From NCBI GenBank assembly GCA_964632415.1, contig CAZWDM010000008.1, forward strand, positions 7,098 through 71,097: a DNA stretch of 64,000 bases, given 5' to 3'. The number at the start of each line of letters is the position of its first letter. Within the stretch, counting starts at the first letter, position 1. Made by a program: the position numbers and the translations under genes. This document shows positions 1 to 13,892 of this stretch, in pieces. The notes below the pieces were generated by a model. The model had not been told where the DNA came from, did no database searches, and worked only from the letters and a program-made list of their open reading frames with translations. The stretch is from an uncultured Dehalococcoidia bacterium. GTDB lineage: Bacteria > Chloroflexota > Dehalococcoidia > Lucifugimonadales > JADFKI01.

Positions 1-683
1 ATCCCGTTATTGACCACAGGCTCTCCTTCCGGCTCCGAGTCAGGAATTATGTGTGCGGCGTCCAGCAGCTCGGTGTGACGCAGACGGCAGAAGGCGCACT
101 GGTTGCGGTATGCGCGAAGCACCCGCTTCCGAAACGCCCTCTGATGAAGGCGCCGCCTCGCGACCGACACGGCGTACTCCCGGCGAACCATGGTAAGTTC
201 TGTTGAATTCTCTTCAGAGAGGGAGAACAGATTCGAGTGAATGGCATCATCAAGGGCGACTGAGAAAGCAAGGTCTTCAGGTCTGTCACGAACCACATAC
301 ACGGGCCACCAGGCCAGATACCTTCCCGGTACCAGTCCGTGAAAATATGTCAGCGGGAGTTCTGTCTGCATCACGAATCGAAGGCCGACGTTATCGCGGT
401 GGTCTGGGTCGGTTCCCCTGTACCGGTACTGCAACAGATCGTCCCGGCCTATCGTGTCCCCATAAGGACTGTTCGGCGAAGTCGTGATCGAGAGTGGGGC
501 TTCCAATATCGCGGGCTTGAATATCCCCTGGGGTGCTACAAGAGGCACCCGAATCCCTTCGAAGCTGAACCCTTCGCTCAGAACGCTCCGGGGCAGCACA
601 TCTCCGTGCAGGGAGACCTGTTCCGCCAACCAGTCAAAAGCCGCTGACCTGACGCGCGCGTCGTGTTCTCCGTCGATATTCAC
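1..683 (-). CDS. Predicted restriction endonuclease: COG3440-like N-terminal reader-type domain plus HNH nuclease (partial, C-terminus lies beyond window start)
   Basis: Absent from the ORF track because it is open at the window edge. Minus-strand translation from GTG at 683 (preceded by in-frame TAG) reads VNIDGEHDARVRSAAFDWL..APQGIFKPA..LSITTSPNSPYGD..LQYRYRGTDPDHRDNVGLR..PLTYFHG..YRNQCAFCRLRHTELLDAAHIIP. The last block is an HNH_2-type signature. The upstream blocks match my recollection of COG3440 predicted restriction endonucleases. Confidence 0.7.
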   Translation of the reverse strand, partial: MNIDGEHDARVRSAAFDWLAEQVSLHGDVLPRSVLSEGFSFEGIRVPLVAPQGIFKPAILEAPLSITTSPNSPYGDTIGRDDLLQYRYRGTDPDHRDNVGLRFVMQTELPLTYFHGLVPGRYLAWWPVYVVRDRPEDLAFSVALDDAIHSNLFSLSEENSTELTMVRREYAVSVARRRLHQRAFRKRVLRAYRNQCAFCRLRHTELLDAAHIIPDSEPEGEPVVNNG

Positions 684-763
684 CTAGACACTCCTGAGAT
701 GGTGGGCCTATTCTCGACGATCGCTTGTGATTCCTCAATCGGTACACGCCAGGACTTCGTGAG

Positions 764-3700
764 TCACCCGACAGGCTCCAGTGCCAACTCCGGCACCACT
801 ACCTCCCACCTGTCGGTCCTGATACCCCGATGGTATTCCGGATCGGCGTTTGCCTTGTCCCAAACCGCCACAGCCAGGACCGTTGCCGATTTCACCCTCA
901 TGCCATCCGCCCCCTTGTAGCCGCCTGAGAGCTGTCCAACAACCCTTCCCTCATCATTCAGGAGTTCCAACCTGCCACGCGATCCCGAGCGTACTCGAAT
1001 CGGGTCGCCGGCCGACAGCTCCGAAATCGCATCGTGTACAGGGTCATCCGGATCCTTGTAGCCTGCGAAGCTCAGAAATACGTCCCTCAGGCTGAGCCGC
1101 CTGTAGCTTCGGGACAACTCGGGACTCGGCGCCGAAAATCCAATGTGCTCGGTCCGTCGCAGTACCGAGGGCAGGTCCTTCAGTTCATCCTGAAATGGAT
1201 GTGGTGCCGGCATCCGCGCGAGCGTGAGAGTCTTTCTGGCGCGGGTCATCGCGACGTAGTAGAGGCGTCGGGGAGCGTCCCTGTCCTCACCACGCGACAC
1301 ACCCTGCCAGTTACCGTCCAGAACCACGACGTGGTCGAACTCAAGCCCCTTCACCCGGTGGGCCGTAAGCAGCAGAAGGCCCCGCTGCCTACGGCGCACA
1401 TCCCGGCCCCACTCGGCCAGCCACTCCAGGAAGTGCCCAACGGGGTTCTCCGTTCCACCGGTCTCTTCCGCGTACTCGCCGACGCCCTCCCTGAGAAGAT
1501 CCACCCAGGGACCGGGACTCAGGCCGGCAAGGAATTCATCGATCGAGCCACTCGATATCAGCCCCGATGCCCTGCTCTCAAGCCAGTCCCTGAGCACGCG
1601 GGTCTCGCGAAGGAACCAGACGCCCGTGAACTCCTCGTTGGCCATCTGCACTGGAATGCCCTCGACCTCGCATAGGGCGCGAACCGGATCGAGGAAGCTC
1701 CAGTTGCGTGCGACTACGGCGCAGGACGACCAGTCCCAGTCCGGATCCAGCTCCGCCAGCCGCCTGAGTTCTGCCACAGCCGCCAGGGCCTGGCTTGCCG
1801 GAGACCTGCCTACAGGGAGTATCTGCACCCTACCCTGTGCGATAGGGTCGATGAGGGACCAGTCTCCGCCGTCAGGCTCCCTTGAGCGGCGCCTGTCTAT
1901 CTCTATTGGAGAGTCTGCCTTCATCCGTTCACTAGCGGGTTCGATCACCGCGTTTGCGGCGGATATGATGTGCTTCGTCGAGCGATAGTTCTGGGTCAGC
2001 ATGAGAGCCTGGGCTCCGTAGTCGGACTCGAAGCGCCGTACGAACTCCACGGAAGCGCCGCTGAACGAGTAGATGTTCTGGTCGTCGTCACCGACCGCAA
2101 AGAGGCTCAGCTTGTCGTCGGTCTCTGCGAGTGTTCTGCCAGCGAGTGCCGATATGAGAGCATACTGGTCGGCCTCAATGTCCTGGTACTCATCGACAAG
2201 TATCCAGCGGAATCCGGCGAGAAGCCGCTCCCTGAATTCGTCCGCCTCGTCGGGCAGCAGGCCGTCTCCCTGCAGCAGAGCCGTCGCCTGTTTCAGGACG
2301 CCCCTGAAGTCGGGCTCGTTGAGCCTGTTCGCCCGGCCGACGAAGCTTGCGCCCGTTAGTCTCATCGCAAGCGCGTGGCAGGTGAGCACGATGACGCCGC
2401 GGGCGTCGTCGCCTATGAGCTCGGAAAGCCTGCGGCGTATCTCAACCGCAGCATGGCGGTTATAGGCCAGCGCCAGTATGGAACGCGGATTCTGACGGCG
2501 GACGCGAACCAGGTAGGCTATGCGATGCACCAGCACTCTAGTCTTTCCGGAGCCCGGTCCAGCAAGCACCAGTACGTTCGGGTTCTCGCGGTCGTCCACC
2601 ACGATACGCCGCTGGTGGGGATTCCTGAGGCTGTCCACGATCCTGTGCCAGGACTCTCCGGTGGTCTGCCGGGTCAATTCACTCTCCCGCACGGGCAGCC
2701 AGCGCTTCAGAAAGTCGTTCTGCGGCAGCACGAAGTAGTCCATAGCAAGTCTCAGCGCATCGGCCACCGACTCCAGCCCGGTCTGGGCGTATCTGTCCAT
2801 GATGTGGACCTGGATGGTCTGCTCATCGTAGTGAACTCTCAGTGGGGCGAAGTCAGAGGCGGTGAACTGGCGTCTCTCGTTGGCCAGCCGTATCGTCATC
2901 GCCGGCCGGAACACCGTCAGCCCTCTGTTCAGGCGGACCACTTCCTGCTCGTGAAGCCACAGGAGGGCTCGTTCCATCAGGCGCACGGGGTTGCGCGTGC
3001 TTCTCAGGGTGACATCGGCGCGTACCGCTTCCAGCATCTTTCCCATCGTCGTCTCCGCGAGGAGATCGACTCCCCTGGCGCCACGGGGCAGAGTGGACAG
3101 CAGATGCTGAAGCATTCTGTTGGCGGCGGCGCGCCGGATCTCGGCGGTGCGCGACAGGGCGCCCCACTCACGCCTGAGGGTCACATGAAGGGAGTCGGAG
3201 TCCCGACCCCGAACCGAGAGGCTGCCGCCAGTACCTCCTTCTCCACGGCCGTCGGCTGCCACGCTGTTCATTATCCTGCGCACGCGCTCCGGTAGAGCGT
3301 ATGAGTAACCATCGTCCTTCAGACGCTGGGTCGCCCCGCGTAAGAGCAGCTGCGTCGATTCGCCAACTTCCATGTCGGGAGCGGCCTCGCGCAGCAGATC
3401 AATGGTGGCCTGCTCCAGCTCCGATGCCTGGGCGAACCGCATCTCGGATGCGCGCTGCACTCCCCTGTGCACGAATGCGGTCAGCACCGTGTCGTTGCTT
3501 GCGATGCCGACCTCCTCCAGGTCGTGCAGGGCTTTTCGCACCTCCTCTGCGCCGAGACCCGACACTATCATCAGCTCATCGGTCGAAACTCCCTCATCCG
3601 GGTCAGACTCGAGCAGCGCCCTGACGATAGACAGCAGCTTCACGCGATAGGTATCGTTGGTCCTGCGCCGAGTGAGCCTTGTCTGTGCCTCCTCAACGGA

Positions 3701-5974
3701 CTTCACGCGCAGCGACGATGGGAAGACCTGGACGAAGTTCTCCTCCCTAGCGAGCAGCACGGCATCCTCAAGCCAGGAGACCGCTGTCCTGACGCGCGTG
3801 TCGTCAGTGGCGGAGTCACTTTCCCACTCAGTTCCGTCGCTTTCACTGAGTATCTCTCCGGGCGTCGCAATGACCTGCCCGTTCAGTCGCTTCCTGCTGT
3901 CGAGGTTGCGCAGGGCCCTGAGCACCCCCTGGATCTCCCGCCGGCTGAGTCTGGACATGGCTGAGAGGCCGAACTGCCGGTCCACGTCTTCCGTGGTATA
4001 CAGAAGGACGCATCGCGCAGATGCCCTGTCCCGGCCGGCGCGACCCGCCTCCTGAAGATAGTTCTCAAGCGAGCCTGGGATATCAGCGTGGATTACGAGT
4101 CGCACGTCCGGCTTGTCGATGCCCATTCCGAACGCATTAGTCGCGGCTATGACCTGCAGATCTCCGTTGATGAAGTTCTCCTGGACATCCTTCTTGAGCT
4201 CGGGAGACAGGCCGCCGTGATAGTAGCCGGCGCTCACGCCCTTCTCCTGCAGAAATTCCGCCATCTCCTGCGTCCTGAGCCGCGTGGAGCAGTACACTAT
4301 GGCGCCGCCCTCGCCCTTCTCCAGCAGGTCGGACGATATGATCTGGTGGGTGTGGTCGAACTTCTCGCCCTCAGACGTCTTCACCACAGCGAACTCCAGG
4401 TTAGAGCGGTACGATCCACCGTCGAAGACCTCAAGATCCGTTCCCACCTCATCGGAGAAGTAGTCCACGATGTCGCTTACCACGCCCGGCTTCGCCGTCG
4501 CCGTGAGGCACAGGACCGGCGGAACGGTTCCCTCCCCTGCGCTCTCCCGGATGAATCTGCCTATGTACCGGTAGTCGGGGCGGAAGTCGTGACCCCACCT
4601 CGACAGGCAGTGCGCCTCGTCCAAGACCCAGTACCCTATTTCACGTTGGGCGAGCACTCGTCTGACGGAGACGCTGCGAAGCTGCTCCGGGGAGATGATC
4701 AACATGCTGGCGTCCCCAAGACGCACCTTGTCCAGCGCATCGCCTCGCTCCGGCATGGACAGCAAGCCGTTTACGGTCACCGCTGAGAAGATGCCCTTCC
4801 GTTGCAGCCCCAGCACCTGGTCCGCCATCAGTGCAACCAGGGGCGAGATGACCACGGTCAGCGCGCCTGTCTTGTCATAGCGCGACAGAGCCGGCACCTG
4901 GTAGCAAACGGACTTGCCCGTGCCGGTGGGCAGGATGGCGAGCGCACTTCCGCTGCGCACCATCGCCTCGACAACAGCCTGCTGAAGCGATCTGCCGTTA
5001 TCGTCGACCGGCTCAGGACGGTACTCGTCAAAGCCGAACCACCTCTTGAGCTCCCTTCGCGAGTCATGCCTCTCAAGGCACCAGTCGCAGCCAGAATCGT
5101 CACAGGGCGTATCCCGCAGGCGACGCACGAGCCGGCCAGTCTCTGGAAACTGGTGCCTCACCCAAGGAGGCATGACGGAGTTGCCGCCCGCTACCGAGAG
5201 CCACGCCAGCACATAGGCAAGCGGCCAGCCCTGGTCCTTGGCGTCATCGACCACTTCTCGCGCCCCTCTGACACAGACGCTGCCATCTAGCAAATCTGAT
5301 ATGGCGGTTCTGGCCTCACTGTCTGACGGTCTGGCGGACTGCCTCAGCTGACTGAACACCAGGTCAAATCCAATTTCCCCTGCGGCCGTGGTGAGCCAGT
5401 GCCATGCAGCCATCAGATCGGCGTCCTTACTGCCAAAAGCCGTCTGCTGATGTTCGAACAGCTCCAACGTCAGCCGTGCGTCGAGCTCCGGGTCGTTGAT
5501 TCGGCCGCGGCGCAATTGTCCGTCCTGATAGTGCTTCACGAGGTAGTGGTAGGGATTCTGTGGGAATGCGAGCGGGTTGAGCATAAGTGTGTCAACGGCC
5601 GGCATGTCCAGCAACCGCAGGTTAGGAGCGACCGACCGGAGGCGAGGCAGATCGAAGTGGAGCAGGTTGTGACCTAAGATGAAGGCTCTGCCTTCGGCCA
5701 GCTCGTCCAGACGATTTAGCGCCTCATCAAGACGGCTATGTTTGCCATCGAAGACGAAGGTCTCACCTGCGCCGGAACATATCGCAGCCAACGCGTGAAT
5801 CACCTGGTCCCGGGGACTGACCTCAAGGTCGAGGGACAGGCAATCGGTCAGCGACAGGTCGGAATCGCCGCCTCGCCTGAGGATATTGGGAAACCAGTTC
5901 ATGTGAAGTGTCGGTCCCGGAATGCGCTCACGCTTAATTCCCAATAAGCTACAGGAACTTCCGGCGGTTAACAA
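764..5974 (-). CDS. Triple-fusion DNA helicase-nuclease: DEDD-type 3'-5' exonuclease + RecQ-family SF2 helicase + UvrD/PcrA-type SF1 helicase
   Basis: 1736-aa ORF. Exonuclease motifs near the N-terminus: LSLDLEV, FILGHNLLHFDLPRL. RecQ motifs: LPTGTGKSVCYQ, VLDEAHCLSRWGHDFRPDY, CLTATA, IAATNAFGMGIDKPDVRLVIH, QEAGRAGRD. UvrD motifs: LAGPGSGKTRVLVHRIAYL, ILVDEYQDI, VGDDDQNIYSFSGA, LTQNYRS, VKGLEFDHVVV, LYYVAMTRARKTL. Confidence 0.85.
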   Translation of the reverse strand: MLTAGSSCSLLGIKRERIPGPTLHMNWFPNILRRGGDSDLSLTDCLSLDLEVSPRDQVIHALAAICSGAGETFVFDGKHSRLDEALNRLDELAEGRAFILGHNLLHFDLPRLRSVAPNLRLLDMPAVDTLMLNPLAFPQNPYHYLVKHYQDGQLRRGRINDPELDARLTLELFEHQQTAFGSKDADLMAAWHWLTTAAGEIGFDLVFSQLRQSARPSDSEARTAISDLLDGSVCVRGAREVVDDAKDQGWPLAYVLAWLSVAGGNSVMPPWVRHQFPETGRLVRRLRDTPCDDSGCDWCLERHDSRRELKRWFGFDEYRPEPVDDNGRSLQQAVVEAMVRSGSALAILPTGTGKSVCYQVPALSRYDKTGALTVVISPLVALMADQVLGLQRKGIFSAVTVNGLLSMPERGDALDKVRLGDASMLIISPEQLRSVSVRRVLAQREIGYWVLDEAHCLSRWGHDFRPDYRYIGRFIRESAGEGTVPPVLCLTATAKPGVVSDIVDYFSDEVGTDLEVFDGGSYRSNLEFAVVKTSEGEKFDHTHQIISSDLLEKGEGGAIVYCSTRLRTQEMAEFLQEKGVSAGYYHGGLSPELKKDVQENFINGDLQVIAATNAFGMGIDKPDVRLVIHADIPGSLENYLQEAGRAGRDRASARCVLLYTTEDVDRQFGLSAMSRLSRREIQGVLRALRNLDSRKRLNGQVIATPGEILSESDGTEWESDSATDDTRVRTAVSWLEDAVLLAREENFVQVFPSSLRVKSVEEAQTRLTRRRTNDTYRVKLLSIVRALLESDPDEGVSTDELMIVSGLGAEEVRKALHDLEEVGIASNDTVLTAFVHRGVQRASEMRFAQASELEQATIDLLREAAPDMEVGESTQLLLRGATQRLKDDGYSYALPERVRRIMNSVAADGRGEGGTGGSLSVRGRDSDSLHVTLRREWGALSRTAEIRRAAANRMLQHLLSTLPRGARGVDLLAETTMGKMLEAVRADVTLRSTRNPVRLMERALLWLHEQEVVRLNRGLTVFRPAMTIRLANERRQFTASDFAPLRVHYDEQTIQVHIMDRYAQTGLESVADALRLAMDYFVLPQNDFLKRWLPVRESELTRQTTGESWHRIVDSLRNPHQRRIVVDDRENPNVLVLAGPGSGKTRVLVHRIAYLVRVRRQNPRSILALAYNRHAAVEIRRRLSELIGDDARGVIVLTCHALAMRLTGASFVGRANRLNEPDFRGVLKQATALLQGDGLLPDEADEFRERLLAGFRWILVDEYQDIEADQYALISALAGRTLAETDDKLSLFAVGDDDQNIYSFSGASVEFVRRFESDYGAQALMLTQNYRSTKHIISAANAVIEPASERMKADSPIEIDRRRSREPDGGDWSLIDPIAQGRVQILPVGRSPASQALAAVAELRRLAELDPDWDWSSCAVVARNWSFLDPVRALCEVEGIPVQMANEEFTGVWFLRETRVLRDWLESRASGLISSGSIDEFLAGLSPGPWVDLLREGVGEYAEETGGTENPVGHFLEWLAEWGRDVRRRQRGLLLLTAHRVKGLEFDHVVVLDGNWQGVSRGEDRDAPRRLYYVAMTRARKTLTLARMPAPHPFQDELKDLPSVLRRTEHIGFSAPSPELSRSYRRLSLRDVFLSFAGYKDPDDPVHDAISELSAGDPIRVRSGSRGRLELLNDEGRVVGQLSGGYKGADGMRVKSATVLAVAVWDKANADPEYHRGIRTDRWEVVVPELALEPVG

Positions 5975-6386
5975 GGCGCGGCAAGGTCACTCGGAATACT
6001 GGTTGCTGTGCAGCGGACGGGTGACGTATGTGTCGGGATCTACAGTGAAGACCGGTATGCGAAGCTGCCGGGCGTATCTGACTTCAAGTCCCACACCTAC
6101 ACTCTGTTCCCATACATCCAGGGCAAAGTATCCTCATCTCGTCGCAGGGCGCCAGGAACTGTAGGCCCAACGCGTACCAGACACTGTTCGAGATGTCGGC
6201 ACCATCAAGTGACGCACCAAGAGAGAGTGGCTAGAAGAAGAGATTGCGGTCTCCGATCAGGGGTGCGCAGTACCTGCTGACGCTCTCGAACTTCCTTGCC
6301 CTGACGGAAGGGTCATGATGGCCCAGGGGTGCGGCCAAGTAGATCAGAGGATTGTTGAAGCTCTCGAATTCGTTCAGGGCTTTTGC

Positions 6387-6812
6387 CTACGTCTGAACTG
6401 CCAGATCCACCAGGACCATCGCAACCGCCGTGCGCACCGTCCGCCTGCAGAGCTCCCTCATACTGTGTCGGTATCTCCGATAGAATTGCCACAATGAGTT
6501 GTGATCAGGATGCTGCCAACCGGTCAGCCACAGGTATGGTATCTGGTCTCGACAAGCCGCCTCCAACTTGCGACAGGAGCGCCCATTTGTCATGAAGCCG
6601 TACTTCCATACGCTCAGCAGAGCACGTGGATGGTAGGCCGGCGCTCCCAGCGTTTCTCCGTCCGGCTTCACGCCCAATTCCGCTCAACCGTCGCGGCTCA
6701 GCGCGTCCATTAACTCGGCCATGACCCGGGCGGGGTGATCTGGAGGGACAAGCTCATCGAGTGTCAGCGGCAACAGCTAGGCCTGTTCTCGGTCCATCCC
6801 TCTCAGGGGCAT
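6387..6812 (-). pseudogene. Decayed N-terminal remnant of an IS5/IS1182-type transposase
   Basis: Minus-strand reading gives MPLRGMDREQA, an in-frame TAG, then LLPLTLDELVPPDHPARVMAELMDALSRDG. After a frame change it continues GVKPDGETLGAPAYHPRALLSVWKYGFMTNGRSCRKLEAACRDQIPYLWLTGWQHPDHNSLWQFYRR. This is the conserved N-terminal region of IS5/IS1182 transposases. No DDE catalytic part follows. Confidence 0.6.
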
Positions 6813-6993
6813 CTGCTGTCCTACCACTCCCGAGTCCTCTCGGCATTCTACACTCCCAAAATTACGCTGTCTTATGACACAGACACAAATGATGGACCAC
6901 CGCCCACACTATTTATGCCCGATTCCTCGATGCACCCTATTGGAGAAATGGCATGCGTTGACATTGAAAGGAGTGGCTAAACGGATTTGAAAT

Positions 6994-7371
6994 TTATGTG
7001 TTGGAAAATGACTTGCAGTGATTTCGATAAATGTGCGATAACTTATCGCTCTCGGCGGTCAGCCATGCGTCGTCACCAGGAGGCTTGACCTCTACCACCC
7101 CACAAGCCGGAACTTGGCCCTGTCGCGGACTTCCCCTCTGCACCTGAGAGGCGGCATATAGACCAAAGTCGGGATGTCCCACACCTTGGTTTGCCAGTTC
7201 CTGTACAGAAAATACTCTCGGGCGGAGAGTTGCACCGATGGCGTTGAAGAGCCCATTGAGGGCTGGGTAGGTCGATAGTTCACCGGTTGCTCCACCAGAA
7301 GCACTAATCCGGCGAATATCCTCAAGGTAAGTTTCAACGATAGACTTCAGTTTGGTAAAATCGTGTGCCAT
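6994..7371 (-). pseudogene. Truncated N-terminal fragment (about 115 aa) of an MmeI/type IIG-like restriction-modification (or BREX-type methyltransferase) protein
   Basis: The 125-aa ORF contains GATGELSTYPALNGLFNAIG..QGVGHPDFGLYAAS..GVVEVKPPGDD..LSHIY. This matches the N-terminal PD-(D/E)xK-like block (G-x-PDF ... E-x-K) that opens very large type IIG/IIL enzymes. The ORF stops long before any methyltransferase motifs and abuts the IS remnant. Confidence 0.45.
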
Positions 7372-7385
7372 CGTTTCTTTCCGGT

Positions 7386-7422
7386 GGGAGGAGAGGGAAG
7401 CAATAGCTAGCCCTCTCCTCCC
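7386..7422. repeat. Perfect 12-bp inverted repeat GGGAGGAGAGGG / CCCTCTCCTCCC with a 13-nt loop (polypurine/polypyrimidine hairpin) next to the iteron array
   Basis: Read directly: 7386-7397 is the exact reverse complement of 7411-7422. A relatively AT-richer stretch (about 7455-7505) lies between it and the iterons. Confidence 0.8.
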
Positions 7423-7508
7423 ACCCCCTACCCCTCCTCATGTAGAGAGTAGGTTGTAGGGGGTAGTGTGTGGTCAAATTGCATTTAGGTAGAGAAATGC
7501 CCGAAATC

Positions 7509-7698
7509 GTCCCATCAATACATTCCACTCGTCCCATCAAAACGCACTATGCGTCCCGTTAAGACATTCCAACAGTCCCATCAAGACCCACTACGCGTCC
7601 CCCCAAAACAGCCAGCTTGTCCCATCAAAACACCCTCTTGTCCCGTCAAAACATGTCCCACTGTCCCATCAAAGCATAGCTGCCTGTCCCATCAAAAC
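7509..7698. repeat. Iteron array: nine direct repeats of GTCCCATCAAAAC-like 13-mers at about 22-bp spacing (candidate oriV)
   Basis: Copies start at 7509, 7531, 7553, 7575, 7597, 7619, 7640, 7663 and 7686, with spacings of 21-23 bp. Copies 3, 5 and 7 are degenerate (GTCCCGTTAAGAC, GTCCCCCCAAAAC, GTCCCGTCAAAAC). The array begins 4 nt after the stop of the 420-aa ORF. Confidence 0.8.
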
Positions 7699-7701
7699 AC
7701 C

Positions 7702-8964
7702 CTACTGACTATCCTTTGGTGGCAGGATCCTGCGTCCCTCGATGCGCAGTTCTCCATGCTCCTCAAGATTTTGGAGTGCGCCCCACGCTCGTCGCGACAA
7801 TTCACGGCGATTGGTCTTGGTACTGCTTGGGTAAGCGAGCGCGATTGCGTCATCGTCATCCAGTGGATCATAAGGGTCAAGTCCGGTCCGACGCAGCCAT
7901 CGGCCACCCTTGGGAGCGTGAGTACGTCCAGGTTCGTGCCAGAGGAATGACAGGCCAATCAGTGCCCGATATGCCGGTGCGCTTTCGGCTCCCCACTTGT
8001 CGAGTCGGTGGGGCAGCTGCACGCCGCCCTCCACCTCCGGTGGTATATCCAGTACAACTCCGATCGGCATTTCTAGGTCGATCTTGCCGAAGTTCTCGTT
8101 GATGCGCAGAAGATGGTGAAAGTGACCGTATCCTGTCTTCTGATTGAGTATTGGAATTCGTGCCTCTAAGTTTATCACCTTGATCGCTTGATGAATGCGC
8201 GGCCACATGCGGCCGACATTTGGTGGCTTGCGTGATCGCCCGTCTAGGCGTTCGGGGGGATACAGGGCGTCCCTGAGGTCCCTAAGAGTTATCTCATAAG
8301 TCACGAATCGATCACTATGTCGCACGAAGCTGGATGGGGCGGCGGCAAGTTTAACGAGCATACGGGCTGGAATGGGAGCAGCTCCGTGTCCTCCACGAGC
8401 TTCGCCCGCTTCAACTCCGAGGTCATATAAGTTGACAGGCAACACCGGAACTCGTCCAGTGGGCCTTCCATTTTGGAAACCGGGGAAGGCGACTTGGGTT
8501 CCTTCACTGTCAGGGGCACCGTATGCCGGGGAGAGGTAGAGGCGGTCTGTGCCTGAGTTCAATTCCCTGCGCATCGCCACGCGCGGCATGATTGCGTCTG
8601 CGCGCAGACTCCCATTCGCATCCCTTACAGCTTGAACTTCCGTCGGCCCTGACTGCCACGCAGCAATGAGTGGTGCAAGGGGGTGCTTTATGGCTTGGTC
8701 ATCCTCATAGACTTCTTCCCATACCAAATGGGCAAGCTCTGCGAAGCTACCGACCTCGAAGCGCTTGTCTGTTGCCTTTTCCACTATGACCCAGCGACTG
8801 AAGAACTCTTCGCGGGCCTCGGTGCCCCAGGCAGTCGTAGAAATGAGGTTGTCGAGTTGTCGAAACTCCGGATACTTATCTGGTGGGCAATCGCCTTGAT
8901 TGCCGGTCGCCTTCCAGATGGCATCCGTAAGCAGTTTCAGTGAATCCTGGCTATTGGAGGGCAT
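7702..8964 (-). CDS. 420-aa orphan protein, candidate iteron-binding replication initiator (function inferred from position only)
   Basis: Long ORF with ordinary amino-acid composition. It is last in a co-directional primase-like / AAA_25 / orphan gene string and directly abuts the iteron array. I recognise no diagnostic motif; the C-terminal region (RRAWGALQNLEEHGELRIEGRRI) could be a winged helix. Confidence 0.45.
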   Translation of the reverse strand: MPSNSQDSLKLLTDAIWKATGNQGDCPPDKYPEFRQLDNLISTTAWGTEAREEFFSRWVIVEKATDKRFEVGSFAELAHLVWEEVYEDDQAIKHPLAPLIAAWQSGPTEVQAVRDANGSLRADAIMPRVAMRRELNSGTDRLYLSPAYGAPDSEGTQVAFPGFQNGRPTGRVPVLPVNLYDLGVEAGEARGGHGAAPIPARMLVKLAAAPSSFVRHSDRFVTYEITLRDLRDALYPPERLDGRSRKPPNVGRMWPRIHQAIKVINLEARIPILNQKTGYGHFHHLLRINENFGKIDLEMPIGVVLDIPPEVEGGVQLPHRLDKWGAESAPAYRALIGLSFLWHEPGRTHAPKGGRWLRRTGLDPYDPLDDDDAIALAYPSSTKTNRRELSRRAWGALQNLEEHGELRIEGRRILPPKDSQ

Positions 8965-9006
8965 AGTAGTTGCTCCTGCCTATTGGTATGTCGCGGTTAT
9001 GCGGGT

Positions 9007-10221
9007 TCAGATGACGTCGTTAAACATATCGGCACGTTCGGCATTCTCACCACGTTTCTGTGCCGCTGTGTTCTCGCCATAGTCGGCGGTTCGCCCCGGG
9101 CTCTCGATCCAAACCCCGCGCTGGTTGGTGAGCCAGATAGAGCCGGTGGTAGCGCTATAATTCTGCTTCGCATTCACCAGCCGGTGGGCATATGCAGGCT
9201 CGCATGTGCAACTCTTGGGAGTGCCGCAGTCGCCTTGGCAACTACGTCTGATGGTTTCAATGTTCCACATCGCCCGGACACCACCCAGAATTCCTGTCGA
9301 GCCAGAGTACACGACACCCGCTGTCTTCGGCGGGTGGGCAATAAGCAGCACGGCGCAATCGTTCTCATCGGCCCACGCAGCCCAATCGGCAAAGAACGCT
9401 CCGACTTGGGCGCGATCTATCTCACTCGCGCCATTGGCAACGCCCAGAGTGTCGATCACTAGTAGCCGCACATCTTGTTCCTCGGCTGCCGATCGTAGCA
9501 TCTGTCCGGCAGGTGTGAGGCCATGTACTGAGTTTCGTTCAGTGGCCGTCCACAGGTGCCCCTGCGCGCGCATATCAGCGATCTTGAGATTCTCTCCGTT
9601 GCCAACCTTACCCGACTGATCAAGCCAGTAGAGTCGCCCGCGTATCTGCTCAGGGCTGTCTTCCCAGGTGGCGTAAAGTACCTTGGTCGGTCCGAGAGGT
9701 TCAAAGCCCATCCCGTAGTCCGCTCCGTTCGCCGGCATTAGTCCTGCCTCACCCAGCCATTGACCATCGCCGCTGAGGGCCCACGCTAGCTGCAGTGCGA
9801 GTCTGGACTTCCCAACCCCGCCGTCTCCGGTCAGCATCGCAACGCAACTTCTGGGAAGCCAGTTTTCGATGAGCCAGGACTGCCAGTACCGGACCGGTAT
9901 GCCGTCAGTAAGCGGCAGCTTCTGACTGCTCTGCGCTTGCTCAATCGCATACCGGATGGCATCAAGGTCAGCAGCCAATGGCTGTCGTCCGGACAGCAAC
10001 GCTTCGTTGATTCTGGCGGCCGCGCTCCTGCCTTGCTCAATAACTGGAGTTTCGTACCCCGTTCCTCCAGTCAGAGTGTTGAAGTTCTCCCCCACCGCGG
10101 CCCAGTCAATAGCGTTCTGTGAGTTCAGCGCCTCCGCCATTGCGTGCGCGGCCTCCTGGAGCGCAGTCGGCTCCACGTTTATGGGACTAGCTGCCAGGTG
10201 TCCGTTCTCGTTCGTCGTCAT
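9007..10221 (-). CDS. AAA_25 / plasmid RepA-like RecA-fold ATPase (putative replicative helicase or loader)
   Basis: Walker A MLTGDGGVGKSRLALQLAWAL. Walker B region LLVIDTLGVANGASEIDRAQVGAFFADWAAWADENDCAVLLIAHPPK. This is typical of AAA_25 proteins that sit next to primases on mobile elements. Confidence 0.75.
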   Translation of the reverse strand: MTTNENGHLAASPINVEPTALQEAAHAMAEALNSQNAIDWAAVGENFNTLTGGTGYETPVIEQGRSAAARINEALLSGRQPLAADLDAIRYAIEQAQSSQKLPLTDGIPVRYWQSWLIENWLPRSCVAMLTGDGGVGKSRLALQLAWALSGDGQWLGEAGLMPANGADYGMGFEPLGPTKVLYATWEDSPEQIRGRLYWLDQSGKVGNGENLKIADMRAQGHLWTATERNSVHGLTPAGQMLRSAAEEQDVRLLVIDTLGVANGASEIDRAQVGAFFADWAAWADENDCAVLLIAHPPKTAGVVYSGSTGILGGVRAMWNIETIRRSCQGDCGTPKSCTCEPAYAHRLVNAKQNYSATTGSIWLTNQRGVWIESPGRTADYGENTAAQKRGENAERADMFNDVI

Positions 10222-10233
10222 GTCCTTCCCCGC

Positions 10234-11418
10234 CTACTTCAGCATAGTCGAGGCATATCGCATTGCCTCGAACTCTGCCATTCCCTCGCCCACAAGGTCC
10301 TGAGCGAATTTCTGCAGTTCTTGTACATCAAGAGCTCCCAGTGGCGCCTCACGGGCTGCATCGGCGGCGTCCTTTCCGATGTCCACGCCCATCACCTCGA
10401 CTGTCTGTCCCGCAAGCTTACGAGCCTGTGCTAGTGATACAGCTGCGTCTAGTCCTGGGCGCTGTCCTTTGTTGTTCAGGTCGTCCATATCCGGCCACAG
10501 CGTTATGAAGTCGTATGTCGAGAGGGCGCCGCGCCAGTCGATTGGTGGACGGGGCGTTGTCAACGTCGCGATTACAGGGTCGGGTTCGCGCGCCGCCAGC
10601 GCGAGCGCGTCAGCCGCTCCTTCACAGACAGCTGCTCGGTTTCCGCGTATATCACCCACGGTCCAGACCGCAAGCCTGGCGTTGCCGAATTTCGGCTTGT
10701 CAACTCGACGGCCCTGAGAGTTTTCGTAGTCGGCACGCTCGCCGTCTGGGTCGATGCAAACGAGCTGCACCGCGGTGGGCGGTGGCGTGTCCGGATAACT
10801 CGCTTGCCATGCCGCAATCGGTGCAAGTGGGAAAGCAATCGCCCCAGCCCCGGAGTGCGTTCTTCTGAAGACGGGGGCGTCAGCTGGGACCCAGCGTAGG
10901 GACGGTGGCAGCGGCAACTCCGGCCTCCAGAGATTGCGTTGGCGAATCCAGTTTCGCACAGGATGGTCGGAGGCGTCCGCAATAGGCAGTATCTGGCGTC
11001 TTATCCACCGGAGAGTTTCTCTGGGGTCATGACTGGATGGACCTTCACTATGGCCTCTATTCTCGACGGTTCTAGTCGACCTCGTGGTGGCTCCTTGGTG
11101 CCGATGCTGGCTATTGGTAACGCCTTCGTCTCGTTTTCGCAGAAAGCCCTGTTGTTCCAGCCACTCGACTGCACCTGCTTTATCGCAGCGTTCCTCGCGC
11201 ATCACCAAGTCGAGCACTCCCCCGCCCTCGTTCGCCTCGAAATCACTCCAGCCTCCGGTTTCGAGCTTGAGTCGAAACGAGCCCTTGCGCCCCCAGCGCC
11301 ACTCCCGCGATGAACGGCTCGCGGGCTCTCCTAGAAGACGTTCACATACTGCGGGGGCGATCTGAACGAATTCCCGTTGGGCGACATAAGCATCCACGGC
11401 TGCATGAGGGCTTGTCAT
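10234..11418 (-). CDS. Toprim-domain primase-like protein
   Basis: N-terminal block WRWGRKGSFRLKLETGGWSDFEANEGGGVLDLV, a Cys-less version of the P4/TraC-type primase zinc-binding region. Toprim motifs VCEGAADALALA and WPDMDDLNNKGQRPG. Confidence 0.7.
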   Translation of the reverse strand: MTSPHAAVDAYVAQREFVQIAPAVCERLLGEPASRSSREWRWGRKGSFRLKLETGGWSDFEANEGGGVLDLVMREERCDKAGAVEWLEQQGFLRKRDEGVTNSQHRHQGATTRSTRTVENRGHSEGPSSHDPRETLRWIRRQILPIADASDHPVRNWIRQRNLWRPELPLPPSLRWVPADAPVFRRTHSGAGAIAFPLAPIAAWQASYPDTPPPTAVQLVCIDPDGERADYENSQGRRVDKPKFGNARLAVWTVGDIRGNRAAVCEGAADALALAAREPDPVIATLTTPRPPIDWRGALSTYDFITLWPDMDDLNNKGQRPGLDAAVSLAQARKLAGQTVEVMGVDIGKDAADAAREAPLGALDVQELQKFAQDLVGEGMAEFEAMRYASTMLK

Positions 11419-11528
11419 CGTTCAGTCTCACTTGCGACCCTTATCGAGTGGCGGCTCGGTGTTAGGAATGTGCAAAACATCATCAACATGGCTCTTCGTT
11501 ACGCGGCCTTTGCCGATTAGACTCAAGC

Positions 11529-12911
11529 CTACTTCCAGAGGTGACGTATTGGTACGGCATATAAGTTCTCGCCAAATCTCGCAACTGTCTCGCCGTCGTA
11601 CAACACAACACCGTTGGTGAACTTATTTCCAGCAATTCTCTTGAGCTTGCGTAGCCCTCGGAAATCCGACGGCATCACAGTGGCTGCCGCCTTTACATCC
11701 ACGCCGGCTACGGCGAGCGCACCTCTCTCAATCACAACGTCAACCTCAAGCTGGTCCTTGTCCCTGTAGTAGAAGAAGGAGTGAGGGTTGATACTCCAGC
11801 TCGCTTGGCGCCTCAATTCCTGAAAAACGAAAGTCTCAAGGAAATCGCCTCGGACCGTTCGGTCGGCCGCAAGTGAGTCTTCATCTAGTCCCAGGAGCGC
11901 GCAACCAAGCCCGGTATCTCCCAGGTGAAGTTTTGGGGTCTTCACAAGACGCCCCTGGGGTCCGCTGTGCCACGCCGGTAGTTTTTCCAGAAGAAAGACT
12001 CTCTCGAGTAGCTCCACATAGTCCCCGATCGTCTGCCTGCTTAGCTGGAATGGAGCGGCGAGTTCCGTAAGGTTAAATAGCTTAGCGGTCTGAGAGGCAG
12101 CAACGTTCAGCAATCTTGGTATGACGTCCAGGCCTCTGATACGCGCCAAGTCGCGCACGTCTCTTTGTACGTGAGATTCCGCATATGCCCTGCACCATGC
12201 TGCTCGTCTGTGTGCCGCGGTGCGGGCAAGGGCTGGAGGGAATCCACCTGCCACTATGCGTCGGTTGAGTTCGTGGCCGAGCCGAGCCGATTGGCCGATC
12301 GTGAAACCGTTACGGAATAGTCTATCTAGGAAGCCACTCGGAGGAAGATCATACGGGACGGTTTCATCAAGCTCAGTGGCTCCAGCCTCAATTTCGCCCT
12401 GAGATAGAGGGTGCAGCCGGACTATTTCCTGGCGCCCTGCAAGTGAGTCGGCCAGTCTCTCAAGCAAGAGAATGTTGGAGGATCCGGTCAGCACGAAGCG
12501 TCCGGGCCTGCGGTTGCGGTCAACCGCCAGCTTCAGGGCGGTGAACAACTCAGGAGCACGCTGCACTTCGTCCAGTACGACGTTCTCTGGCAAGTCATCA
12601 ACAAAGCCTACTGGGTCTTCCTGTGCGCCGACGCGCAGACTGTCGTCGTCAAGGCTAATGTACTCATATTTGCCCGGCGTGCTATGAGCAATAGAGTATG
12701 GGATACTGGTGGCAATGGGGTCTCCACCTGAAGTTCCCACATACTCCGGCGCGCAGATAGTTTGGGCGAGCGTCGTCTTTCCACACTGGCGCGGTCCGTG
12801 AATCAGTACAATCGGGGAGTCTTCTATCGCCTCTAGCAGACGATACTCGGCGTATCTTGGGTAAATTGTTGCTGGAGACATTGGAGTCGGCCACCTTTGA
12901 CAAATTCGCAT
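11529..12911 (-). CDS. AAA+ ATPase with DUF4143-type C-terminal domain
   Basis: Walker A LIHGPRQCGKTTLA and Walker B VVLDEVQRAPE. The length and C-terminal architecture are typical of AAA_14 + DUF4143 proteins. Confidence 0.7.
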   Translation of the reverse strand: MRICQRWPTPMSPATIYPRYAEYRLLEAIEDSPIVLIHGPRQCGKTTLAQTICAPEYVGTSGGDPIATSIPYSIAHSTPGKYEYISLDDDSLRVGAQEDPVGFVDDLPENVVLDEVQRAPELFTALKLAVDRNRRPGRFVLTGSSNILLLERLADSLAGRQEIVRLHPLSQGEIEAGATELDETVPYDLPPSGFLDRLFRNGFTIGQSARLGHELNRRIVAGGFPPALARTAAHRRAAWCRAYAESHVQRDVRDLARIRGLDVIPRLLNVAASQTAKLFNLTELAAPFQLSRQTIGDYVELLERVFLLEKLPAWHSGPQGRLVKTPKLHLGDTGLGCALLGLDEDSLAADRTVRGDFLETFVFQELRRQASWSINPHSFFYYRDKDQLEVDVVIERGALAVAGVDVKAAATVMPSDFRGLRKLKRIAGNKFTNGVVLYDGETVARFGENLYAVPIRHLWK

Positions 12912-12973: not shown

Positions 12974-13226
12974 GTTGGTGGGGCCATCTCTTCTAGTCCA
13001 CAGGCGCAGCTATCATAAATTAAACGAAAAGATATGCCGAAACTGATTGCTCTTTTGCAGTGAGTCAGCGAAGATGAAAATGGCGACGATACGACTTTAC
13101 CGCATCACCCCTCGACTACTCTACAACCATACAACTTTACCACCATAGCGGTAAGCAACGAAACAACATCACGGCAATCGTATAATGCGACGCTCGTCGC
13201 CCAAGAGCTTGGGAGTAATACCTATC

Positions 13227-13892
13227 ATGGACGTTGTTGGCGTAGTTGCCCAAAAGGGCGGTGTGGGCAAGACTCATCTGACAATCAACTGGGCTGTGGA
13301 GGCTGAGCGGCAGGGTATGGGGCCCGTGGCAATCTTGGATCTGGATCCGCAGGCTACCGCTGTGTCCTGGTCGCAACGCCGGCTGAGGAAAATGTCTGTC
13401 AACAGACCCTTCATGCTTAAGGCTGAAGTCGACGATGTCGGTAGCGTCAGTCTCGAACAGGTGGTTGAAGTTTGTAGGGCGTGCCTGCACGAAGGCATCG
13501 AGCTCCTGTTCATCGACACGCCGCCTTCAGTTAGGCAGCCCGTGCTAGTGACAATGGAAGTCTCTGACTACGTTGTGATCCCGTCCGGCCCGTCCCTAGC
13601 GGAGATGGAAGCCATCGGAACTACGGTAGCGATAGTTCGGAGTGCCGGCGTGCCAGGTTGCATCGTGGTTAACAGAGGAAGGCCTAGGTCGCCCATAAAT
13701 GAAGACGCGTCAACCGCCCTTGCCGGTTACGAGTTGCCTGTCTGTCCCATGGTAATTACCCAACGCGCGGCAATTCAGGATGGCTTCAGGGATGGGCAGA
13801 CAGGCCGGGAATATGCACCACGAGGTAAGGCTGGAGGTGAGATCACTGCAACTTGGAAGTGGATTACAGATCAGATTAGAGGAGACGCCTGA
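13227..13892 (+). CDS. parA: ParA/Soj-type partition ATPase (small, type Ib-like)
   Basis: Deviant Walker A VVAQKGGVGKTHL. The ORF-track start at 13185 sits inside a perfect TATAAT hexamer (13181-13186), so the ATG at 13227 (MDVVGVVAQKGG) is the more likely start. Confidence 0.85.
   Translation: MDVVGVVAQKGGVGKTHLTINWAVEAERQGMGPVAILDLDPQATAVSWSQRRLRKMSVNRPFMLKAEVDDVGSVSLEQVVEVCRACLHEGIELLFIDTPPSVRQPVLVTMEVSDYVVIPSGPSLAEMEAIGTTVAIVRSAGVPGCIVVNRGRPRSPINEDASTALAGYELPVCPMVITQRAAIQDGFRDGQTGREYAPRGKAGGEITATWKWITDQIRGDA

What the first reader, a model, noticed from the sequence alone, without database searches (positions are those of the whole stretch)
1..5974. Exonuclease-RecQ-UvrD triple-fusion helicase paired with a reader-HNH nuclease: candidate two-gene restriction/defence module
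A single 1736-aa polypeptide joins a DEDD exonuclease, a complete RecQ SF2 motor and a complete UvrD SF1 motor, which have opposite superfamilies and usually distinct roles. Its stop (764) lies 80 nt from the start (683) of a co-directional COG3440-type HNH endonuclease, whose relatives act as modification-dependent (type IV-like) nucleases. The pair sits in a cargo region with McrBC, an RM fragment and IS debris. Sensor-nuclease plus translocase/degradase is a recurrent defence logic (McrBC, SauUSI-like, Gabija-like), but I do not recognise this domain combination as a named system.
Basis: partly seen in the sequence, partly recalled or inferred. Interest (0 to 1): 0.7.

Follow-up and report, generated by a model that had tools for sequence, protein, structure and literature searches.

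The report
Giant dual-motor helicase beside HNH nuclease
The window holds an intact 1712-residue protein that joins an exonuclease-like domain to two different DNA helicase motors, followed by an intact HNH nuclease gene; the helicase belongs to a large uncharacterised family that nearly always occurs alone, so the pair is a recurrent but optional neighbourhood, not a fixed two-gene defence system.

Summary
The helicase is 1712 aa from the ATG at 5902; 1736 aa is only the maximal ORF. Its RecQ-type and UvrD-type motifs are about 100% conserved in 121 relatives. The N-terminal domain folds like a DnaQ/DEDD exonuclease and keeps the four acidic residues. The usual His/Tyr general base is an invariant Asn. 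The HNH gene is intact (307 aa) on the parent contig and starts 80 nt after the helicase stop.

The two-gene-module reading is only partly supported. The helicase family is large: 1183 clusters at 50% identity match its N-terminal domain. It lies on chromosomes and 24 plasmids and in no GenBank phage. It has no conserved neighbour. An HNH homologue lies nearby in 1 of 80 metagenome loci, and 120 nearest neighbours match 109 Pfam families.

From the HNH side the link recurs. Two of four HNH clusters picked without regard to the helicase, and a distant Allochromatium plasmid, carry this helicase within 10 kb. Order, orientation and spacing differ. Other HNH homologues sit alone.

The HNH N-terminal "reader" domain could not be identified. 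I found no named defence system or paper for this fusion. The best reading is two autonomous island genes, possibly cooperating.

The parts
764..5902 (-). Giant helicase gene, 1712 aa plus stop codon at 764-766. It is a full-length member of the exonuclease-like/RecQ/UvrD fusion family.
   Evidence: ORF and translation. It is identical to protein P0001, and more than 100 full-length clusters are 67-84% identical. Domain hits.
5903..5974 (-). In-frame 5' extension of the ORF, from the TTG at 5974. Probably not translated.
   Evidence: Homologues and the recorded product begin at MNWFPN, the ATG at 5902.
5423..5845 (-). N-terminal DnaQ/DEDD-fold exonuclease-like domain (aa about 20-160). D25, E27, D84 and D141 are conserved. 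N136 occupies the general-base position.
   Evidence: AlphaFold model with pLDDT 87.6. Foldseek PDB top hits are TREX1 homologue Plex9.1, the S. aureus DinG exonuclease domain, the T7 polymerase exonuclease, Cap18 and TREX2. Profile hit to 9mrc at E = 0.008. Residue conservation.
5003..5422 (-). All-helical linker (aa 161-300) with invariant C210, C267, C272, C275 and H279. It resembles a zinc-binding cluster and sits just before the RecQ core.
   Evidence: Secondary structure of the model. Invariant columns. Metal binding is inferred.
3953..4996 (-). RecQ-type SF2 helicase core (aa about 303-650). Motifs I, II (DEAH), III and VI are intact.
   Evidence: Pfam DEAD and Helicase_C. TIGR00614 scores 291.6 bits against a cut-off of 219.8. 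Motifs are 99-100% conserved.
2633..3952 (-). Family-specific middle region (aa 651-1090) of unknown fold. No RecQ zinc-binding, RQC or HRDC domain is detected.
   Evidence: No Pfam hit and no PDB profile hit. It is conserved at 47-82% identity across the family.
1217..2623 (-). UvrD/PcrA-type SF1A helicase core (aa 1094-1562). Motifs I to VI are intact.
   Evidence: Pfam UvrD-helicase, AAA_19, UvrD_C and UvrD_C_2. Motifs are about 100% conserved.
767..1216 (-). C-terminal domain (aa 1563-1712) of unknown fold, conserved across the family.
   Evidence: No Pfam hit. No PDB profile hit. Alignment A6.
684..763 (-). 80-nt spacer between the helicase stop and the HNH start. AGGAG lies at 695-691, 7 nt before the GTG. 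No terminator-like site.
   Evidence: Sequence. Scan of 1-7600 finds no minus-strand terminator or promoter here.
1..683 (-). First 227 codons of a 307-aa HNH_2 endonuclease gene. The gene continues beyond the window start. The N-terminal domain of about 160 aa is unassigned. The HNH motif begins at aa 196.
   Evidence: Translation. Full-length P0121. Pfam HNH_2 at 4.7e-11. PADLOC PDLC04132 'HNH' and NCBIfam PT-DNA_restrict match the C-terminal half only.
6002..6386 (-). Decayed copy of a small DUF4406/DUF1937-like gene. The intact gene (139 aa) lies 100 nt upstream of the helicase in relative L001. Here it has an in-frame stop and a frameshift, and its 5' end is cut.
   Evidence: tblastn at 62% and 60% identity in two frames. 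Sequence. Pfam hits for the intact L001 copy.
6393..6812 (-). Truncated insertion-sequence remnant: the N-terminal 140 aa of a DUF772/DDE transposase.
   Evidence: tblastn at 82% identity to the 485-aa transposase of L002.
6994..7371 (-). N-terminal fragment (125 aa) of a type ISP restriction-modification enzyme.
   Evidence: tblastn at 42-52% identity to annotated type ISP enzymes on plasmids. No Pfam hit.

Best explanation
The locus holds two intact, separately functional genes that sit together in a mobile, defence-rich island.

Gene 1 is a stand-alone accessory enzyme from a large, highly conserved family. From N to C terminus it has:
- a DnaQ-fold exonuclease-like domain;
- a Cys3His helical linker;
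- a RecQ-type SF2 motor;
- a 430-aa family-specific region;
- a UvrD-type SF1A motor;
- a 150-aa C-terminal domain.

Inferred mechanism for gene 1: one polypeptide carries two 3'-to-5' ATP-driven DNA motors and a 3'-end-processing module. The front half has a WRN-like layout. I infer that it loads at nicks, gaps, ends or branched DNA and unwinds and resects it without an obligatory partner.

Gene 2 is a 307-aa HNH_2 endonuclease. Its catalytic half is homologous to those of type IV-like restriction enzymes. Its N-terminal domain is unidentified and may be a DNA sensor.

In this SAR202-like lineage the two genes are 80 nt apart and may be co-transcribed. HNH cleavage could supply entry sites for the helicase. 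Across the family this pairing is optional, so it is a facultative association and not a defined two-gene system.

Shown: architecture, motif conservation, gene integrity, distribution and neighbourhood statistics. Inferred: all enzymatic activities, the direction of translocation, any role in defence, and any cooperation between the two proteins.
For: Architecture and catalytic motifs.

Family size and conservation:
- More than 100 full-length clusters at 67% identity or more.
- 1183 representative clusters match the N-terminal domain, and the full-length members are 1700-1890 aa.

Stand-alone status:
- An HNH homologue occurs in 1 of 80 metagenome loci. These are 67 lineages, 53-54 of them with at least 1 kb of flank on a given side.
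- No neighbour cluster occurs in more than 5 of about 88 loci.
- 120 nearest neighbours hit 109 Pfam families, none more than twice.

Accessory and mobile character:
- The family is on 24 of 72,556 plasmid records.
- It is in none of 50,697 phage records and in 3 loci of the IMG/VR viral collection.
- Neighbours include integrases, transposases, GmrSD, SLFN/AlbA_2, type I restriction enzymes, HerA and toxin-antitoxin genes, alongside metabolic genes.

HNH autonomy: homologues sit alone among metabolic genes.

Facultative link: the two genes co-occur in variable arrangements.
Against: - The HNH-helicase neighbourhood recurs more often than independent placement would predict. Two of four HNH clusters picked without regard to the helicase have it within 10 kb.
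- The partnered helicases are only 41-84% identical to the window's.
- An 8-kb helicase-HNH-resolvase-exonuclease block is 98% identical in several flank contexts.
- Allochromatium pALVIN01 carries both genes about 7 kb apart at only 37-41% identity to the window's.
- These points favour some functional coupling.
- No activity has been measured for any member.
- The Asn at the general-base position may mean the exonuclease-like domain is inactive.
Confidence: 0.5

Rival explanations
1. A true, loosely organised defence module. The HNH nuclease senses and cuts foreign DNA, perhaps modified DNA. The giant helicase then translocates from the break and unwinds or degrades the DNA, sometimes with a separate DEDDh exonuclease. 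The genes need not form one operon, and many helicases would have lost or swapped the partner.
For:
- The arrangements include co-directional with 80 nt or 369 nt between the genes, divergent with 235-400 nt, and separated by 3-7 kb.
- The same HNH allele (P0124) is linked to helicases of 69% and 79-84% identity.
- The Allochromatium plasmid has exonuclease, HNH, a type I restriction-modification system and the helicase within 14 kb.
- A DEDDh exonuclease recurs near the helicase in L052, L099-L105, L116 and L121.
- No terminator lies between the two genes in the window.
Against: - HNH is near the helicase in 1 of 80 metagenome loci and on 1 of 24 plasmid records that carry the helicase.
- HNH is absent from L001, L002 and L004, which are 75-84% identical.
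- Order and orientation are not conserved.
- HNH homologues also neighbour unrelated large helicases, such as the ProA/Hhe-like protein and a UvrD plus PD-(D/E)XK pair, or no helicase at all.
- Most co-occurrences come from one set of related ENA metagenomes.
Confidence: 0.28
2. The giant helicase is a genome-maintenance (repair or replication-restart) enzyme and not a conflict gene. It would be a bacterial WRN-like exonuclease-RecQ unit fused to a UvrD-like motor. The HNH gene would be an unrelated neighbour.
For: - Strong purifying selection acts on all motifs.
- Many neighbours are ordinary metabolic genes.
- PGAP names the protein 'RecQ family ATP-dependent DNA helicase' with a GO term for DNA recombination.
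Against: - The gene has no fixed chromosomal context.
- It occurs on plasmids and beside integrases, transposases, toxin-antitoxin and restriction genes.
- It scores far below the equivalog cut-offs for RecQ (335.7 against 640.2), UvrD, PcrA and Rep.
- 67% or more identity to a Caldilineaceae protein, and 52-62% to Acidimicrobiaceae and Rhodobacterales genes, suggests horizontal spread.
Confidence: 0.12
3. A toxin-antitoxin-like pair of the RqlHI/PsyrTA kind. The RecQ-like helicase would be genotoxic and held in check by a small partner, here the DUF4406-like gene found just upstream in close relatives.
For: - The PADLOC PsyrT model hits the RecQ core at 5e-89.
- An intact 139-aa DUF4406/DUF1937-like gene lies 100 nt upstream of the helicase in L001. 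A decayed copy lies at the same position in the window.
- RqlH is toxic without RqlI (PMC4670107).
Against: - The PsyrT match covers only the generic helicase core, profile positions 23-378 of 689.
- RqlI/PsyrA is a roughly 400-aa DprA-like protein encoded downstream.
- The 139-aa protein hits no PADLOC model.
- The small gene is absent from all 80 metagenome loci.
- It is a pseudogene in the window while the helicase is intact.
Confidence: 0.04

Closest known systems
WRN (human Werner syndrome protein) and other exonuclease-helicase fusions such as Bacillus and Staphylococcus DinG
   Same: An N-terminal DnaQ-fold 3'-5' exonuclease domain is fused to an SF2 helicase core in one chain. The S. 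aureus DinG exonuclease domain is among the best fold matches.
   Different: WRN carries RQC and HRDC domains and a DEDDy site. DinG has an XPD-type core. The protein here has a RecQ-type core without detectable zinc-binding, RQC or HRDC domains. It has Asn at the general-base position, and a second complete SF1A motor follows.
RqlH/PsyrT of the RqlHI (PsyrTA) system
   Same: A RecQ-like core found on mobile islands. The PADLOC PsyrT model matches at 5e-89.
   Different: RqlH is about 700 aa and has a DprA-like partner, RqlI, encoded downstream. Here the protein is 1712 aa with an exonuclease-like domain and a UvrD motor, and that partner is absent.
Gabija GajB and other UvrD-type defence helicases; the two-motor helicase-nucleases AddAB, AdnAB and RecBCD
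   Same: A UvrD-type SF1A motor in a defence or end-processing setting, and the idea of two motors acting in one machine. GajB models match at 1e-49.
   Different: There is no GajA (ATPase-TOPRIM) partner and no RecB-type nuclease domain. The two motors are on one chain and come from different superfamilies. Both are expected to move 3' to 5', unlike RecB and RecD. This polarity rests on established knowledge of the families and was not tested.
Type IV sensor-HNH restriction enzymes (SRA-HNH TagI and ScoA3IV; sulphur-binding-domain HNH enzymes, NCBIfam NF045808)
   Same: The layout is a roughly 300-aa protein with an N-terminal non-catalytic domain and a C-terminal HNH half. The HNH half is homologous: NF045808 positions 156-276 at 3.8e-17, and PADLOC 'HNH' at 7e-19.
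   Different: The N-terminal domain aligns to neither family. The score of 62 bits is far below the 180-bit cut-off. hhalign against the UHRF1 SRA domain gives probability 0.2. No modification dependence has been shown.
DpdF of the Dpd 7-deazaguanine DNA modification system
   Same: It is the best PADLOC hit: DpdF at 3.7e-111 over aa 279-666.
   Different: Only the SF2 core matches. NCBIfam DpdF scores 193 bits against a cut-off of 550. There is no dpd gene cluster nearby.

Membership tests
RecQ family helicases | SF2 core passing the RecQ-family subfamily model (TIGR00614) | tested here: met
   291.6 bits against a cut-off of 219.8, over aa 303-649. Motifs I, II, III and VI are 99-100% conserved.
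RecQ family helicases | Orthology to bacterial RecQ (equivalog TIGR01389), with RecQ C-terminal zinc-binding, RQC and HRDC domains | tested here: not met
   335.7 bits against a cut-off of 640.2, matching model positions 5-336 of 591 only. No Pfam hit in aa 650-1090 and no PDB profile hit.
UvrD/PcrA/Rep SF1A helicases | UvrD-helicase N-terminal and C-terminal domains with motifs I to VI | tested here: met
   PF00580 at 136 bits, PF13245, PF13361 and PF13538. Motifs are about 100% conserved. Equivalogs are not met, for example UvrD at 177 bits against 1144.
DEDD (DnaQ-like) 3'-5' exonucleases | RNase H-like DnaQ fold | tested here: met
   The model has pLDDT 87.6. The top Foldseek hits are all DEDD exonucleases, with E = 5.8e-3 and probability 1.0 for the best hit and target-normalised TM-score about 0.5 for the single-domain targets. 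No hit reaches E = 0.001 and Pfam RNase_T does not match, so the support is moderate.
DEDD (DnaQ-like) 3'-5' exonucleases | Four invariant acidic residues in motifs ExoI, ExoII and ExoIII | tested here: met
   D25, E27, D84 and D141 are 98-100% conserved and align to the DxE, NxxxD and D motifs of 9mrc.
DEDD (DnaQ-like) 3'-5' exonucleases | His (DEDDh) or Tyr (DEDDy) general base in ExoIII | tested here: not met
   This position is Asn136 in 100% of 121 family members. It aligns to the His of the 9mrc HDxxxD motif.
Dedicated two-gene defence system (helicase plus HNH) | The two genes are co-conserved across genomes, with stable order and orientation | tested here: not met
   From the helicase side, HNH is present in 1 of 80 loci. 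It is absent from L001, L002 and L004-L008. From the HNH side, 2 of 4 clusters picked without regard to the helicase have it within 10 kb, and 2 have none. Arrangements differ between loci.
RqlHI / PsyrTA | A roughly 700-aa RecQ-like toxin with a DprA-like partner of about 400 aa encoded immediately downstream | tested here: not met
   The downstream gene is an HNH endonuclease. The PsyrT model matches the core only. The partner is as described in PMC4670107.
Gabija | GajA (ATPase-TOPRIM) adjacent to GajB | tested here: not met
   No GajA-like hit among the flanking ORFs scanned with PADLOC. GajB models match the UvrD core only.
SRA-HNH type IV restriction enzymes (TagI, ScoA3IV) | N-terminal SRA (PUA-superfamily) base-flipping domain | tested here: inconclusive
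   There is no Pfam hit in 30 members and no PDB profile hit. The AlphaFold model is unusable at pLDDT 43.5.
Phosphorothioate-dependent HNH restriction enzymes (NF045808) | Whole-protein score above the 180-bit cut-off, including the sulphur-binding domain | tested here: not met
   62.3 bits. Only aa 174-294 align, to model positions 156-276.
HNH_2 endonucleases (PF13391) | HNH_2 motif with the catalytic His, Asn and His residues | tested here: met
   42.8 bits against a cut-off of 21, and 30 of 30 family members match. The motifs DAAHI, NG and LHH are invariant.

The most novel reading that the evidence does not exclude
The exonuclease-like/RecQ/UvrD protein is the core of an undescribed anti-mobile-element system that usually works as a single self-contained protein. 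In several distant lineages (SAR202-like bacteria, other bacteria known only from metagenomes, Allochromatium) it has been joined by a sensor-HNH nuclease, and sometimes by a DEDDh exonuclease. These partners would create the DNA ends that the dual-motor enzyme then unwinds and destroys.
Probability: 0.22. Interest if true: 0.75.

Novelty: new variant of a known kind. Interest (0 to 1): 0.45.

Why it matters
Helicase-nuclease fusions are a recurring design in DNA repair and in anti-phage defence. I found no description of a single chain that carries both a complete SF2 (RecQ) motor and a complete SF1A (UvrD) motor plus an exonuclease-fold domain. Three full-text searches found no paper on it, and no PADLOC or NCBIfam model covers the whole protein.

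The family is large and very well conserved. It spreads across several bacterial lineages and onto plasmids, so it clearly does something under selection. Two 3'-to-5' motors on one chain pose a mechanistic puzzle, because on antiparallel strands they would pull in opposite directions. That polarity argument rests on established knowledge of the two families and was not tested here.

If the family proves to be a defence or plasmid-conflict enzyme, it would add a new single-gene class. The optional HNH and exonuclease partners would then be an example of modular accretion.

The value of this follow-up is mainly negative.

Tried and rejected
1. PsyrTA/RqlHI idea. A DUF4406-like gene lies upstream of the helicase in L001, L004 and, decayed, in the window. 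I rejected the idea for these reasons:
- The gene is absent from all 80 metagenome loci.
- It hits no PADLOC model.
- The real partner, RqlI, is a 400-aa DprA-like protein encoded downstream.

2. SRA identity of the HNH N-terminal domain. By eye the motifs GIFKP, SITTSP, PYDD and YRYRG resemble the SRA pattern. Pfam, a PDB profile search and hhalign all gave nothing, and the AlphaFold model failed. The domain is left unassigned.

3. Single-sequence searches for the exonuclease domain against Pfam and PDB found nothing. Only the family profile and the fold search worked.

4. Profile searches of the middle region and the C-terminal domain against PDB found nothing.

5. A look-up of the window's own helicase in the contig index returned nothing on record. 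The HNH look-up gave only about 1 kb beyond the window start.

6. A separate DEDDh exonuclease as a conserved partner. It is present in only four or five lineages.

7. The L099 block as a transposon. Its right-hand boundaries differ between copies. I did not search for terminal repeats.

8. Matching 'longest contig' lengths between the two homologue lists gave only 4 shared contigs of 120. I used this as a lead, not as a statistic.

9. A literature look for the ProA/Hhe-like helicase and any HNH partner found nothing relevant.

Full report
**Observation**

The first 5974 bases of the window carry a minus-strand ORF at 764..5974 (1736 aa from a TTG). The product on record for this contig (P0001) and all homologues begin at the ATG at 5902, which gives 1712 aa.

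Pfam finds DEAD (aa 305-471) and Helicase_C (aa 518-625). It also finds UvrD-helicase, AAA_19, UvrD_C and UvrD_C_2 across aa 1094-1562. NCBIfam's RecQ-family subfamily model is passed, at 291.6 bits against a cut-off of 219.8. All equivalog models (RecQ, UvrD, PcrA, Rep, DpdF) are missed by wide margins.

In an alignment of 121 full-length family members, every helicase motif of both cores is about 100% conserved. Examples are K330, DEAH 428-431, QEAGRAGRD 617-625, GSGKT 1117-1121 and DEYQD 1237-1241. Both motors therefore look catalytically competent.

**The N-terminal domain**

Sequence libraries do not recognise aa 1-300. A search of 1.84 billion representative proteins found 1183 clusters with this domain. 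The full-length ones are 1700-1890 aa with the domain at the N-terminus.

- An alignment of diverse members gave an AlphaFold model with mean pLDDT 87.6.
- Its best Foldseek PDB matches are all DnaQ-fold 3'-5' exonucleases: TREX1 homologue Plex9.1, the S. aureus DinG exonuclease domain, the T7 polymerase exonuclease, a Streptococcus thermophilus DnaQ domain, Cap18 and TREX2.
- The best of these has probability 1.0, but its E-value is only about 6e-3. Target-normalised TM-scores are about 0.5 for the single-domain targets.
- The family profile hits 9mrc at E = 0.008 and aligns DxE, GHNxxxD and a third motif.
- D25, E27, D84 and D141 are 98-100% conserved.
- The position of the DEDDh histidine is Asn136 in every member.

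Catalytic competence remains open.

Residues 161-300 are helical and end in an invariant cluster of C267, C272, C275 and H279. The 430-aa middle region and the 150-aa C-terminal domain match nothing in Pfam or PDB. The RecQ zinc-binding, RQC and HRDC modules are not detected.

**The HNH gene**

It starts at the GTG at 683, preceded by AGGAG at 695-691. That is 80 nt after the helicase stop codon, and no terminator-like site lies between them. It runs off the window. The complete protein (P0121, 307 aa) is recorded on the parent contig and on four short contigs with the same helicase-HNH junction. The gene is therefore not disrupted.

The family is large (7360 hits) and strongly conserved. JGI names some members 'putative restriction endonuclease'. 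Pfam HNH_2 matches aa 196-245 in 30 of 30 members.

PADLOC's 'HNH' model and NCBIfam's phosphorothioate-dependent restriction endonuclease model align only to the C-terminal half (aa 160-296). The NCBIfam score is 62 bits against a cut-off of 180.

The N-terminal 160 aa stays unassigned:
- No Pfam hit.
- No PDB profile hit.
- hhalign against the UHRF1 SRA domain gives probability 0.2.
- The AlphaFold model is unusable at pLDDT 43.5.

The 'reader' label is an architectural inference only.

**Is it a two-gene module? The helicase side**

The closest long-contig relatives are L001 (84% identical), L002 (75%) and L004 (83%). They have no HNH homologue within 8-10 kb. Neither do L005-L008. Only L003, a SAR202 metagenome-assembled genome with 85% identity, has one. 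There it lies 3.2 kb downstream, beyond an RlaP-like gene and IS110 remnants.

A metagenome scan with a family-specific alignment returned 80 loci, which represent 67 lineages. Of these, 53 have at least 1 kb of downstream flank and 54 have at least 1 kb upstream. One locus has an HNH homologue, and it is the same SAR202 contig.

Clustering of all flanking ORFs found no family in more than 5 of about 88 loci. The 120 nearest neighbours hit 109 different Pfam families, none more than twice. They mix housekeeping enzymes with integrases, transposases, GmrSD, SLFN/AlbA_2, type I restriction enzymes, HerA and AbiEii.

The family is on 24 of 72,556 plasmid records, where it is annotated 'RecQ family ATP-dependent DNA helicase'. 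It is in none of 50,697 phage records and in 3 loci of the IMG/VR viral collection.

The helicase is thus a stand-alone, accessory and probably horizontally mobile gene.

**The HNH side**

Here the picture differs.

They lie divergently 235-400 nt from a 1724-aa family member, in unrelated flanks.
- P0147 was picked without regard to the helicase. It lies 369 nt downstream of, and co-directional with, a 1754-aa member in 8 places. The 8-kb block helicase-HNH-resolvase-DEDDh exonuclease is 98% identical in nucleotide sequence across several flank contexts. That helicase is only 49% identical to the window's.
- P0124 was also picked that way. It lies divergently next to a ProA/Hhe-like 1549-aa helicase. 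A RecQ-UvrD member, or its remnant, lies 4-7 kb away. The same HNH allele is linked to helicases of 69% and 79-84% identity.
- P0172 and P0227 sit alone among metabolic genes.
- On plasmids, Allochromatium vinosum pALVIN01 carries, in order, a 3'-5' exonuclease, HNH, a type I restriction-modification system and the helicase, all within 14 kb. Identities to the window's proteins are only 37-41%.
- The Methylibium, Azospirillum and Bradyrhizobium homologues have other neighbours.

The association is therefore asymmetric. Few helicases have an HNH. A substantial minority of HNH genes have this helicase nearby, in changing arrangements.

**Reading**

Independent placement does not easily explain the recurrence. 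The lack of conserved order, the solo occurrences of both genes, and the HNH gene's proximity to other large helicases all fit two autonomous defence-island residents. They may cooperate opportunistically.

I put about 0.5 on 'autonomous genes, facultative neighbourhood' and about 0.28 on a real, loosely organised module. A housekeeping repair role gets about 0.12.

A PsyrTA-like pair gets about 0.04. The small DUF4406-like upstream gene of close relatives is a pseudogene here and is absent from all 80 metagenome loci. It is also unlike RqlI.

**Context in the window**

- The pair is bracketed by mobile-element debris: a decayed DUF4406-like gene (6002-6386), a truncated DUF772 transposase (6393-6812), a type ISP restriction-modification fragment (6994-7371), and, beyond the window start, a DDE transposase.
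- Further in lie an AAA_25 ATPase, a DUF4143 ATPase (PADLOC candidate PDC-S01), ParA, a tyrosine integrase, a MazF-like toxin and McrBC.

**Novelty**

Three full-text searches found no paper on an exonuclease-RecQ-UvrD fusion. PADLOC matches only the separate cores. The family is already visible in databases under a generic name, so this is an uncharacterised variant of the helicase-nuclease theme and not a new category. The specific two-gene claim is not established.

Noticed in passing
L099:2296-10346 (also L100-L106): An 8-kb block (1754-aa helicase, HNH, serine resolvase, DEDDh exonuclease) is about 98% identical in nucleotide sequence on at least 8 contigs with at least 3 different flank types. 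Some copies are preceded by a FitA/PIN toxin-antitoxin pair. It behaves like a mobile or recombining cassette. Its right-hand boundaries differ between copies.
   Followed up: partly
L116:13741-14322; L121:4087-4704; L099:9605-10207; L052:7121-7921; L006:13105-13530: A separate small DEDDh 3'-5' exonuclease gene lies within a few kb of the giant helicase in several unrelated lineages. The Thiothrix and Allochromatium copies are 50% identical. This is notable because the helicase's own exonuclease-like domain lacks the His general base.
   Followed up: partly
window 6002-6386 (-); L001:9481-9897; L004:1724-2140 and 7811-7897: A 139-aa DUF4406/DUF1937 (nucleoside 2-deoxyribosyltransferase-like) gene sits 100 nt upstream of the helicase in the closest relatives. 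In the window it is a pseudogene cut by an insertion-sequence fragment. In L004 only a remnant is adjacent, and an intact copy lies 6 kb away beyond another 1732-aa ORF on the opposite strand.
   Followed up: partly
L004:2533-7731 (-): A second very long ORF (1732 aa) lies divergently next to the helicase in the Dehalococcoidia chromosome. It was not characterised.
   Followed up: no
L093:2958-7607 (also L094, L097): In these loci the HNH gene's divergent neighbour is a 1549-aa protein with DUF4011, AAA_11, AAA_12, MTES_1575 and DUF3320 domains. It matches PADLOC PDC-S37 at full length. It scores 1466 bits on NCBIfam 'anti-phage protein ProA', just under the 1500-bit cut-off, and is related to Hhe.
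   Followed up: partly
window 7702-12911 (-): Four co-directional genes lie upstream of the island debris: a 420-aa unknown, a 404-aa AAA_25 (RepA/RecA-like) ATPase, a 394-aa protein with weak primase-like and TraI-like hits, and a 460-aa AAA_14 plus DUF4143 ATPase that matches PADLOC candidate PDC-S01 at 3e-148. With ParA (13185-13892) and a tyrosine integrase (15442-16431) this looks like the backbone of an integrative element.
   Followed up: no
window 17447-18142 (+) and 20331-23949 (+): A 231-aa protein carries a MazF/PemK toxin domain. An McrB (AAA_5, 794 aa) and McrC (441 aa) pair overlap by about 90 nt.
   Followed up: no
L094:13414-13644; L097:12269-12538: Only short C-terminal remnants of the giant helicase remain near the HNH gene in these contigs, at 59-60% identity. 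The helicase has decayed while HNH stays intact.
   Followed up: no
L003:5531-6334; L093:12354-13121; L094:9988-10797; L096:6911-7678: An RlaP-family nucleotidyltransferase gene recurs between the helicase and the HNH gene in the SAR202-like loci. A tiny DUF5679 gene follows HNH in L093-L098 and also occurs in L001.
   Followed up: no
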